A stretch of 22,828 nt of DNA, taken from positions 1-22,828 of the IMG/VR virus record IMGVR_UViG_2737471841_000005; one strand, given 5' to 3'. The position numbers were made by a program, and so were the translations under genes. Numbering within the stretch: position 1 is the first letter of the stretch; each line of letters starts with the position of its first letter. Positions 21,905 to 21,990 of the stretch are shown piece after piece. The stretch is from a virus (lineage: Duplodnaviria > Heunggongvirae > Uroviricota > Caudoviricetes). Below the pieces are notes generated by a model, which did no database searches, was not told where the DNA came from, and saw nothing but the letters and a program-made list of their open reading frames with translations.

Positions 21905-21990
21905 AATTCAGACACCGCCAGCTCAACAAATAAATCAAGGGGTTACGTGAAAGCGTAGCCCCTTTTTCTTTGGTAGTGGCAGCAAAATGG
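21905..21990 (+). repeat. Third, degenerate copy of the ssrA 3' end plus terminator (relic att site)
   Basis: 21917..21990 aligns to ssrA 389..463 with a few mismatches and a 1-nt gap (CGCCAGCTCAACAAATAAATC then the same hairpin AAGGGGTTACGTGAAAGCGTAGCCCCTT and T-tract); the CCA end is destroyed. Confidence 0.75.

What the first reader, a model, noticed from the sequence alone, without database searches (positions are those of the whole stretch)
21905..21990. Relic third att site: degenerate ssrA 3' end plus terminator 4 kb beyond attR
A diverged copy of the ssrA 3' end and its terminator hairpin lies past the autotransporter/pinH block. This indicates that an earlier element (the decayed autotransporter/invertase island, 17753 to about 21900) had integrated at ssrA before the P2-like phage did, so the locus holds a tandem array of two elements of different age.
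Basis: seen in the sequence. Interest (0 to 1): 0.6.

Follow-up and report, generated by a model that had tools for sequence, protein, structure and literature searches.

The report
Fossil phage attachment site downstream of ssrA
A short dead copy of the end of the tmRNA gene, fused to the attachment-site arm of a vanished P2-like phage, marks the outer edge of an old decayed prophage island, so the locus records at least three successive phage integrations; this is an ordinary example of a known kind of genomic scar.

Summary
Window 21915-21996 repeats the end of ssrA and what follows it at 388-470: 63 of 67 bases match, the repeat occurs only twice in the window, and it is not a generic repeat.

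- **Terminator origin.** The terminator after ssrA (404-470) is not ssrA's own. It is the P' arm of the attP of Fels-2/186-type P2-like phages: a hairpin plus two Int arm-binding repeats, at fixed spacing in free phage genomes.
- **What the relic is.** About 14 nt of ssrA 3' end (21915-21928) is fused to a decayed Fels-2-type P' arm (21929-21996). It is not "ssrA plus its native terminator".
- **The island.** The ypjA/pinH block (17753-21914) is bounded by the two arms of a lambda-like phage family that integrates at the last ~15 nt of ssrA.
- **History.** Three layers fit best: an old Fels-2-like phage (only its arm survives), then the lambda-like phage (ypjA/pinH remain), then the present deleted Fels-2-like prophage.

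The relic junction is in 3035 of 5426 complete E. coli genomes, K-12-like strains included. The kind is known and interest is low. One oddity remains: the 14-nt ssrA fragment is 3-4 times more variable between lineages than its flanks.

The parts
40..402 (+). ssrA (tmRNA gene), intact
   Evidence: ARAGORN; Rfam RF00023, 295.8 bits
358..403 (+). 46-nt core copy at attL of the resident Fels-2-like prophage
   Evidence: Exact direct repeat with 17707-17752; identical to the core in the attP of phages Cartapus, SEN8 and vB_YpM_MLG42
404..475 (+). P' arm of the resident prophage. It holds the terminator hairpin (411-422 pairing with 427-438) that now terminates ssrA, and two 186-type Int arm-binding repeats at 451-469.
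   Evidence: Present between int and ogr/D in free phage genomes; fold -20.1 kcal/mol; repeats 48 nt after the core end in all phages examined; repeat consensus in PMC3448106
404..17706 (.). Deleted Fels-2/186-type P2-like prophage. It keeps the tail module, pin, a truncated gpA-like gene, a methyltransferase, CII, Apl/Cox, CI, Int and a dCTP-deaminase defence gene.
   Evidence: Pfam, PHROGs and PADLOC; absent from strain 165, which is otherwise identical
17594..17612 (+). P-arm pair of 186-type Int arm-binding repeats (TGGCGGCACTTTGGCGGCA)
   Evidence: One match against 0 expected; at -112 from the core start in every Fels-2-like attP or attR examined
17707..17752 (+). 46-nt core copy at attR of the resident prophage
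   Evidence: the preceding AAAATGGT matches the phage P arm
17753..17902 (+). ssrA-proximal arm of an older lambda-like ('family-2') element, with its own terminator hairpin at 17878-17901
   Evidence: Follows ssrA directly in 1389 E. coli genomes. Homologous arms sit next to lambda-like tail genes in Yersinia and Providencia and in the IMG/VR prophage L105. Fold -17.5 kcal/mol.
17912..21301 (-). ypjA/ehaD autotransporter pseudogene, split into three ORFs; cargo of the old element
   Evidence: ORFs; AIDA repeats; PGAP annotation in strain 165 reads 'frameshifted; incomplete'; the gene is intact at 4.6 kb in strain D72
21442..21750 (-). pinH, remnant of a serine invertase gene
   Evidence: 76% identical over 131 nt to the prophage pin gene; PGAP 'recombinase family protein, incomplete'
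21884..21914 (+). Probable distal arm of the family-2 element (ATTTCAACCAA, then 21 nt, then the core)
   Evidence: Same motif at the same spacing from CGCCAGC in the attR of the O157:H7 lambdoid remnant and in the compact B2-type locus
21915..21928 (+). Displaced fragment of the last 15 nt of ssrA, with one base deleted and one substituted. It is hypervariable between E. coli lineages.
   Evidence: Alignments; mean pairwise difference 0.23-0.28 against 0.06-0.10 in the flanks
21929..21996 (+). Relic P' arm of an older Fels-2/186-type phage: spacer, terminator hairpin 21937-21964, and decayed arm-binding repeats TGGCAGCA (21977-21984) and TGGTTGTA (21988-21995)
   Evidence: 59 of 61 bases identical to the phage Cartapus P' arm; repeats start 48 nt after the core end, as in phages; terminator-like
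22085..22828 (-). 3' part of ypjCB (DUF5508), the flank of the relic; it runs off the window
   Evidence: Pfam 1.6e-166; PGAP annotation; no tblastn hit in 50,697 phage records

Best explanation
Site C (21915-21996) is a fossil junction left by successive site-specific integrations at the 3' end of ssrA. It is not a copy of ssrA's native end.

Proposed history (inferred):
1. A Fels-2/186-type P2-like phage integrated at ssrA. As these phages do, it replaced the gene's last 46 nt and supplied its own P' arm: terminator hairpin plus two Int arm-binding repeats.
2. A lambda-like 'family-2' phage then recombined within the last ~15 nt of ssrA. This pushed those 15 nt and the attached Fels-2 P' arm to its far end.
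3. Both old prophages decayed. Of the first, only the ~68-nt arm survives. Of the second, only its two arms, the cargo gene ypjA and a pin invertase remnant survive (17753-21914).
4. In this strain a new Fels-2-like phage integrated at ssrA (404-17706) and later lost its head, lysis and part of its replication genes.

What is shown: the sequence relationships and the arm-repeat positions. What is inferred: the order of events and the existence of the first phage.

Today the relic is probably inert for recombination. Only 14 of the 46 core bases remain, and both arm repeats are mutated. The hairpin still looks like a strong intrinsic terminator.
For: 1. The block after ssrA is phage DNA. In the free phage genomes Cartapus, SEN8 and vB_YpM_MLG42 the order is int, 46-nt core, hairpin, TGGCGGCA repeats, cargo, ogr/D.
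2. TGGCGRCA-N3/4-TGGCGRCA sits at -112 and +94 from the core start in every Fels-2-like attP, attL or attR examined, from E. coli, Salmonella, Klebsiella, Yersinia and Raoultella. It is the reverse complement of the published 186-type Int arm-site consensus tgccGCCActt, which phage 186 also has although its core lies in tRNA-Ile (PMC3448106).
3. Site C has TGGCAGCA-AAA-TGGTTGTA at the same +48 offset from its core end. It is 59/61 identical to the Cartapus arm.
4. In a survey anchored on smpB, about 55 Enterobacterales ssrA loci could be read. The Fels-2-type block (hairpin plus TGGCGGCA repeats) follows ssrA in two of them, Raoultella (with gpD/gpU) and Sodalis. A related hairpin without those repeats follows it in two Photorhabdus and one Xenorhabdus. 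All the others show the arm of some other element type.
5. At Salmonella attR the bacterial side has the same hairpin followed by P2-type arm repeats, not 186-type ones. So the post-hairpin repeats track the phage family, not the host.
6. The ypjA block is bounded by family-2 arms.
7. Strain 165 equals the window minus the prophage.
Against: - No other trace of the postulated first phage was found. No P arm or second ssrA fragment lies between site C and glaH in strain 165.
- YpjCB has no phage homologue in the phage collection.
- None of 5426 E. coli genomes has P2-like genes to the right of pinH.
- The hairpin itself, without the repeats, is shared by different phage families and occurs next to ssrA in non-phage contexts in Xenorhabdus and Sodalis. 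It could be an ancient native ssrA terminator that phages copy.
- The right-arm assignment of 21884-21914 rests on a short motif in three sequences. No such arm was found upstream of 95 IMG/VR copies of the left arm.
- The compact B2-type locus has no significant trace of site C, so its polarity relative to the ypjA form is unresolved.
Confidence: 0.7

Rival explanations
1. The block at 21929-21990 is the native ssrA terminator and flank of ancestral E. coli, displaced once by the ypjA/pinH island. Fels-2-like phages resemble it because their attP was originally copied from such a host flank.
For: The hairpin occurs directly after ssrA in non-phage contexts in Xenorhabdus indica and Sodalis, with lineage-specific compensatory stem changes. 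Salmonella has it on the bacterial side of attR. No remains of an older Fels-2-like phage were found.
Against: The relic also carries the two 186-type Int arm-binding repeats at the exact phage spacing. These repeats occur in both arms of attP and in phage 186, which uses another target gene (PMC3448106), so they belong to the phage and not to an ssrA flank. In Salmonella the same hairpin is followed by P2-type repeats instead. No genome of 5426 shows ssrA joined to this flank. Most Enterobacterales ssrA loci lack the block.
Confidence: 0.18
2. Same three elements, different order. The lambda-like element came first. A Fels-2-like phage then integrated into the displaced ssrA fragment at that element's attR, acting as a secondary attB, and was later deleted, leaving only its P' arm.
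For: This would let the compact B2-type locus, which lacks the relic, ypjCB, ileY and ygaQ, be ancestral for that part. The ssrA fragment is a mutational hot spot, as might be expected of a site that is used repeatedly.
Against: The displaced fragment is only about 15 nt, whereas Fels-2-like phages share 46 nt with ssrA. Whether their crossover lies in the last 15 nt is unknown. No right end of such a prophage is detectable. About 300 nt of the B2 form are absent from the ypjA form, so the difference between them is a replacement, not a simple insertion.
Confidence: 0.1
3. Chance similarity, or a generic dispersed repeat or terminator unrelated to att sites.
For: Terminator hairpins can recur, and the ssrA-like part is short (14 nt).
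Against: 63/67 identity extends on both sides of the hairpin. There are 2 matches against 0 expected. In E. coli genomes the block is found only at ssrA and at this site. It is collinear with the phage attP, including the spacing of the repeats.
Confidence: 0.02

Closest known systems
Displaced tDNA fragments and tandem island arrays at tRNA/tmRNA genes (Islander principle: Hudson, Lau and Williams 2015, PMC4383910; 'Traffic at the tmRNA gene', Williams 2003, known to me only as a citation and not readable here)
   Same: An intact target gene is followed downstream by a fragment of its 3' end in the same orientation, and this marks the far end of an integrated element. The newest element lies closest to the gene. 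ssrA is a preferred target.
   Different: The island in front of this fragment has no integrase left, so it fails Islander's criteria. The fragment is only 14 nt and degenerate. What follows it is not host flank but the arm of yet another phage.
attP/attL of Fels-2, SopEPhi, RE-2010 and related 186-type P2-like phages that integrate in ssrA (Peduoviridae; PMC3448106)
   Same: Same spacer, same terminator hairpin, and the same pair of 186-type arm-binding repeats 48 nt after the CCA end. The relic is 59/61 identical to the Cartapus arm.
   Different: Only the last 14 of the 46 core bases are present. Both arm repeats are mutated (7/8 and 5/8). There are no adjacent phage genes and no partner attR.
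Region downstream of CP4-57 in E. coli K-12 (ypjA, pinH, ypjB/ypjC, ileY)
   Same: The same genes in the same order. The K-12-like strain AML002_par carries the same relic between pinH and ypjCB at 95.5% identity.
   Different: In K-12-type strains the element next to ssrA is the P4-like CP4-57 (from my own knowledge, consistent with the CP4-57-type arm seen). Here it is a deleted Fels-2-like prophage.

Membership tests
Displaced tDNA fragment marking the end of an integrated island (Islander criteria) | A fragment matching the 3' end of the target gene, downstream of it and in the same orientation | tested here: met
   21915-21928 matches the last 15 nt of ssrA at 13 positions, with one deletion, on the + strand. 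K-12-type alleles keep CCCACCA.
Displaced tDNA fragment marking the end of an integrated island (Islander criteria) | A tyrosine integrase gene belonging to that island lies between the gene and the fragment | tested here: not met
   Between 17753 and 21914 there are only ypjA fragments and a serine invertase remnant. The element is decayed.
Displaced tDNA fragment marking the end of an integrated island (Islander criteria) | The island ends are homologous to the arms of intact elements of one family | tested here: met
   The left arm is homologous to the ssrA-proximal arm of lambda-like prophages. The right arm shares a motif and its spacing with the attR of the O157 remnant; this second match is weaker.
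Displaced tDNA fragment marking the end of an integrated island (Islander criteria) | Related genomes exist with the unoccupied site (gene joined to the flank beyond the fragment) | tested here: not met
   0 of 5426 genomes join ssrA to the site C flank. The compact ssrA-glaH form in 1100 genomes lacks site C.
P' arm of attP of Fels-2/186-type P2-like phages | A terminator hairpin directly after the ssrA CCA end, with the phage spacer | tested here: met
   AATAAATCAAGGGGTTACGTGAAAGCGTAGCCCCTTTTT is identical in layout to the phage attP.
P' arm of attP of Fels-2/186-type P2-like phages | Two direct 186-type Int arm-binding repeats at a fixed distance from the core | tested here: met
   TGGCAGCA and TGGTTGTA start 48 nt after the core end, as in all phages examined (consensus from PMC3448106). 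They are decayed, at 7/8 and 5/8 matches.
P' arm of attP of Fels-2/186-type P2-like phages | Adjacent phage genes (cargo, ogr, D) and a partner P arm plus core at the other end | tested here: not met
   The flank is ypjCB, with no phage homologue. No P arm or core lies before glaH. No genome has ogr/D to the right of pinH.
Functional attB for Fels-2-like integrase | The 46-nt sequence shared by attP and ssrA is present | tested here: not met
   Only 14 nt remain. The positions corresponding to the first 31 nt are unrelated, at about 40% identity.
Rho-independent terminator | A GC-rich hairpin followed by a T run, and termination in vivo | tested here: inconclusive
   The structure and T run are present (12-pair stem, -19.8 kcal/mol), and compensatory stem changes occur in relatives. 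Termination itself cannot be tested with these tools.

The most novel reading that the evidence does not exclude
The 14-nt ssrA fragment is not a passive fossil. It is a recombination or mutation hot spot, for example a pseudo-attB that ssrA-targeting integrases still nick or use abortively. That would explain why it differs between E. coli lineages 3-4 times more than the surrounding non-coding DNA and pseudogenes: 10 of 14 columns vary among 13 alleles, and it is the most variable 14-nt window in 700 nt.
Probability: 0.1. Interest if true: 0.5.

Novelty: new member of a known kind. Interest (0 to 1): 0.22.

Why it matters
**For annotation.** The terminator that ends ssrA transcription in this strain is phage DNA. 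The boundary of the "ypjA island" present in over half of E. coli genomes, K-12-like strains included, can be placed at 21914/21928.

**For evolution.** The locus is a clear worked example of how the ssrA hot spot accumulates layers. A 68-nt phage arm can outlive its prophage completely, and Int arm-binding repeats can be used to tell a phage-derived flank from a native one.

**Practical point.** The 67-77-nt direct repeats at 388-464 and 21915-21990 could in principle mediate deletion of the prophage together with the ypjA island. That product was not seen in any of 5426 genomes.

None of this changes current understanding of integration at tmRNA genes.

Tried and rejected
- **Empty-site search.** A chimeric query of ssrA plus the site C flank gave no genome with the junction.
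- **Remains of the postulated older Fels-2-like prophage.**
  - blastn-short with the P arm, core and ssrA 3' end against strain 165 from site C to glaH gave only chance words.
  - YpjCB against 50,697 phage records gave no match.
  - A chimeric query of the pinH/site C region plus ogr/D had three genomes reach 80% coverage. All three were ordinary attL at ssrA.
- **Strain D72**, where homology stops just after site C, turned out to be an IS5/IS1 rearrangement and was uninformative.
- **Reading 21907-21914 (TTCAGACA) as decayed ssrA T-loop.** Rejected in favour of the element arm: GACA is shared by most lineages, and the O157 attR shows the same arm spacing.
- **pinH start and a pix site next to the relic.** The pinH remnant aligns with pin only over about 190 nt, so no conclusion was possible.
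- **Right arm upstream of 95 IMG/VR copies of the family-2 left arm.** No hits.
- **Trace of site C in the compact B2-type locus.** Not significant: 446 of 2000 shuffles scored as well.
- **smpB-anchored survey.** It could not show the Salmonella ssrA flank, because smpB is not followed by ssrA within 10 kb there. IMG/VR prophage ends were used instead.
- **Literature.** Williams 2003 and Pelludat 2003 are not held in the library.

Full report
**1. The observation**

ssrA lies at 40-402 (ARAGORN; Rfam, 295.8 bits). Three related sites exist.
- Site A is 358-470: the last 46 nt of ssrA plus a hairpin and about 30 further bases.
- Site B is 17707-17752: an exact 46-nt copy of 358-403.
- Site C is the finding.

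398-464 and 21924-21990 are 94% identical over 67 nt. BLAST extends the match to 77 nt at 93.5%, starting at CCGCC of ssrA. The hairpin pattern occurs twice in the window and never in shuffles.

**2. The resident prophage and the meaning of site A**

E. coli strain 165 is 100% identical to window 1-403 and to 17707-22828, with nothing in between. So 404-17706 is a clean insertion with a 46-bp duplication.

Its genes are those of a 186/Fels-2-type P2-like phage: gpD, tape measure, sheath, pin, CII, Apl/Cox, CI and Int. It is a deletion derivative. A tail-fibre fragment abuts a truncated gpA-like gene, and no head, terminase or lysis genes are present.

The decisive point is that the sequence after ssrA at site A is phage DNA. 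In the free phage genomes Cartapus, SEN8 and vB_YpM_MLG42 the order is int, 46-nt core, the same hairpin, GTAGTGGCGGCAAAATGGCGACAG, variable cargo, ogr/D.

The double motif TGGCGRCA-N3/4-TGGCGRCA sits at -112 and +94 from the core start in every Fels-2-like attP, attL or attR that I examined, from five genera, while the DNA between varies. It is the reverse complement of the published 186-type Int arm-binding consensus tgccGCCActt. The literature reports such direct repeats on both sides of the core in these phages. Phage 186 has them too, although it targets tRNA-Ile (PMC3448106).

**3. What site C is**

Site C is collinear with that phage arm.
- CCGCCAGCT-CAACA (21915-21928) corresponds to the last 15 nt of ssrA.
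- The spacer AATAAATC and the hairpin (21937-21964) follow.
- Then come TGGCAGCA (21977-21984) and TGGTTGTA (21988-21995). They start 48 nt after the core end, exactly as in the phages.

The relic is 59/61 identical to the Cartapus arm, which places it within the diversity of living phages.

A native attB flank has no reason to carry Int arm sites.

Two further results argue against a native origin.
- In a survey anchored on smpB, about 55 Enterobacterales ssrA loci could be read. The sequence after CCA falls into element-specific families: the CP4-57/P4 type, a 'family-2' type, and the Fels-2 type. The Fels-2-type block (hairpin plus TGGCGGCA repeats) follows ssrA in two loci, Raoultella (with gpD/gpU) and Sodalis. 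A related hairpin without those repeats follows it in two Photorhabdus and one Xenorhabdus.
- At Salmonella attR junctions the bacterial side has the same hairpin followed by AATGTCCAGTGTCCACTTAGCGTCCACC. That is the P2-type arm repeat tgTGGaCa, not the 186 type. What follows the hairpin therefore tracks the phage family.

I conclude, by inference, that the right part of site C is the P' arm of an earlier Fels-2-like phage. The hairpin alone may well be an ancient ssrA terminator that several phage families copy. It shows compensatory stem changes in Yersinia phage, Xenorhabdus, Photorhabdus and Sodalis.

**4. The ypjA/pinH block**

The 150 nt after site B (17753-17902, with its own terminator) follow ssrA directly in 1389 E. 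coli genomes.

Homologous arms follow ssrA in E. albertii, Xenorhabdus, Proteus, Providencia, Yersinia, Arsenophonus and Enterobacter soli. In Yersinia and Providencia they are followed by lambda-like tail-fibre, J, I and K genes. In an IMG/VR E. coli-type prophage they are followed by EcoRII restriction-modification cargo, stf, lom and J. In O157:H7 a variant arm precedes a 7-kb lambdoid remnant that carries espW and espM2. So this is the cargo-side arm of a lambda-like phage family.

At the other end, 21884-21914 (ATTTCAACCAA, then 21 nt, then CGCCAGC) has the same motif at the same spacing as the attR of the O157 remnant (ATTCAATCAA, then 21 nt, then CGCCAGCCA). The motif also appears in the compact B2-type locus.

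This suggests that the family's identity with ssrA is only the last ~15 nt. That matches the length of the fragment in site C and makes TTCAGACA arm sequence rather than T-loop.

ypjA (AIDA repeats, a pseudogene here) and the pin remnant sit where such phages carry morons and a tail-fibre invertase. The remainder of the phage has been deleted.

**5. History and present function**

The simplest order is: Fels-2-like phage 1, then the lambda-like phage, then Fels-2-like phage 2, with the newest next to ssrA. The reverse order for the first two is not excluded; in that case phage 1 would have integrated into the displaced fragment.

I found nothing else of phage 1. That is the main weakness of the model.

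The relic lacks 31 of the 46 core bases and has mutated arm sites, so it is probably inert for recombination. The hairpin could still terminate transcription, but this is untested.

**6. Population survey (5426 complete E. coli genomes)**

| Configuration | Genomes |
|---|---|
| pinH-relic-ypjCB junction present (includes K-12-like and O157 strains) | 3035 |
| ssrA joined directly to the family-2 arm and ypjA | 1389 |
| ssrA followed by a Fels-2-type arm | 231 |
| Fels-2-type attR joined to the family-2 arm, as in this window | 86 |
| ssrA joined to the relic flank | 0 |
| Compact form: ssrA, 150-nt family-2 arm, about 35 nt of the other arm, about 300 nt, glaH | 1100 |

The compact form lacks ypjA, pinH, site C, ypjCB, ileY and ygaQ, and it shows no significant trace of site C.

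**7. An oddity**

I aligned 13 divergent alleles. The 14-nt ssrA fragment has a mean pairwise difference of 0.28, or 0.23 without one outlier. The pinH remnant, both arms, the hairpin, the downstream spacer and ypjCB range from 0.06 to 0.10. Apart from artefacts at the ragged end of the alignment, the fragment is the most variable 14-nt window in 700 nt. I have no tested explanation for this.

**8. Comparison with what is known, and verdict**

A displaced tDNA fragment that marks an island end, and tandem arrays at tmRNA genes, are established concepts (PMC4383910, which cites Williams 2003; I could not read the latter). Integration of Fels-2 and SopEPhi at ssrA, and the arm-site classes, are also published (PMC3448106).

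The relic is an ordinary member of this kind. The small additions are these:
- its outer half is a phage arm rather than host flank, which implies a third, vanished phage;
- the island's two arms identify it as a decayed lambda-like prophage.

Interest is low.

Noticed in passing
window 15778-17514 (-): A 578-aa protein with a cytidine/dCMP deaminase domain matches the PADLOC dCTPase (dCTP deaminase) defence model at 1e-145. It sits in the cargo slot between int and attR of the prophage.
   Followed up: partly
window 8656-10951: The prophage is a deletion derivative. pin and a C-terminal tail-fibre fragment (9250-9663) abut a truncated gpA-like replication gene (9791-10951, matching profile positions 16-336 of 852). 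Baseplate, head, terminase and lysis genes are missing. The deletion endpoint lies at the invertible tail-fibre segment (pix-like site TTCTTAAACGTTGGTTTGGGAGAA at 9281-9304).
   Followed up: partly
window 576-1289 (+): A 237-aa AT-rich ORF lies in the variable slot between the P' arm and ogr. It has no Pfam, PHROGs or PADLOC match, and no phage in the collection shares it (phage homology to the window stops at about 470).
   Followed up: partly
window 21915-21928: The ssrA fragment is hypervariable between E. coli lineages. 10 of 14 columns vary among 13 alleles, three different bases occur at 21926, and the mean pairwise difference is 0.23-0.28 against 0.06-0.10 in all flanking segments.
   Followed up: partly
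L103 19781-20830 (E. coli AVS0578); 1100 of 5426 genomes: A compact locus was found: ssrA, 150 nt of family-2 arm with a terminator, about 35 nt resembling window 21884-21914, about 300 nt unique, then glaH. ypjA, pinH, site C, ypjCB, ileY and ygaQ are all absent. Whether this form is ancestral or derived is unresolved.
   Followed up: partly
L097-L102 (IMG/VR, Salmonella-type attR), about 50 nt after the ssrA core: The bacterial flank of Fels-2-like prophages carries the same hairpin followed by P2-type arm repeats (TGTCCAC ... GTCCAC). This looks like a parallel fossil of a P2-type phage at the Salmonella ssrA.
   Followed up: partly
L199 921-8032 (E. coli O157:H7 NE122): A 7-kb lambdoid remnant lies between ssrA and ypjA. 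It carries the T3SS effector genes espW and espM2, tail-fibre fragments and IS1203. It has a family-2-type arm next to ssrA and a very short, degenerate core (CGCCAGCCA) at its far end.
   Followed up: partly
L105 (IMG/VR prophage, 51-kb contig): A lambda-like prophage at ssrA has, after the family-2 arm, an EcoRII-type endonuclease, a C5 cytosine methylase and a GIY-YIG protein, followed by stf, lom and J.
   Followed up: no
L104-L198 (95 IMG/VR loci), upstream of the family-2 arm: At least five classes of attR core length are joined to the same flank: about 15, 23-24, 26-28, 45-46 nt, and full ssrA. Many unrelated P arms are involved. This shows how many different elements use ssrA in E. coli.
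   Followed up: no
L011-L014, L016 and others (Salmonella, Enterobacter sp., Pseudescherichia): In these genomes smpB is not followed by ssrA within 10 kb. In Salmonella strain s1 a reverse-strand gene, not characterised here, lies directly downstream of smpB instead.
   Followed up: no
L001 22458-22533 (outside the window, 2.3 kb right of site C): ileY, the published attB of phage 186 (PMC3448106), lies just beyond ypjCB. Two P2-like integration targets are therefore neighbours in this variable region.
   Followed up: no
window 388-464 and 21915-21990: These are 77-nt direct repeats at 93.5% identity, 21.5 kb apart. Recombination between them would delete the prophage and the ypjA island while keeping ssrA and a terminator. 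The predicted product was not found in any of 5426 genomes.
   Followed up: yes
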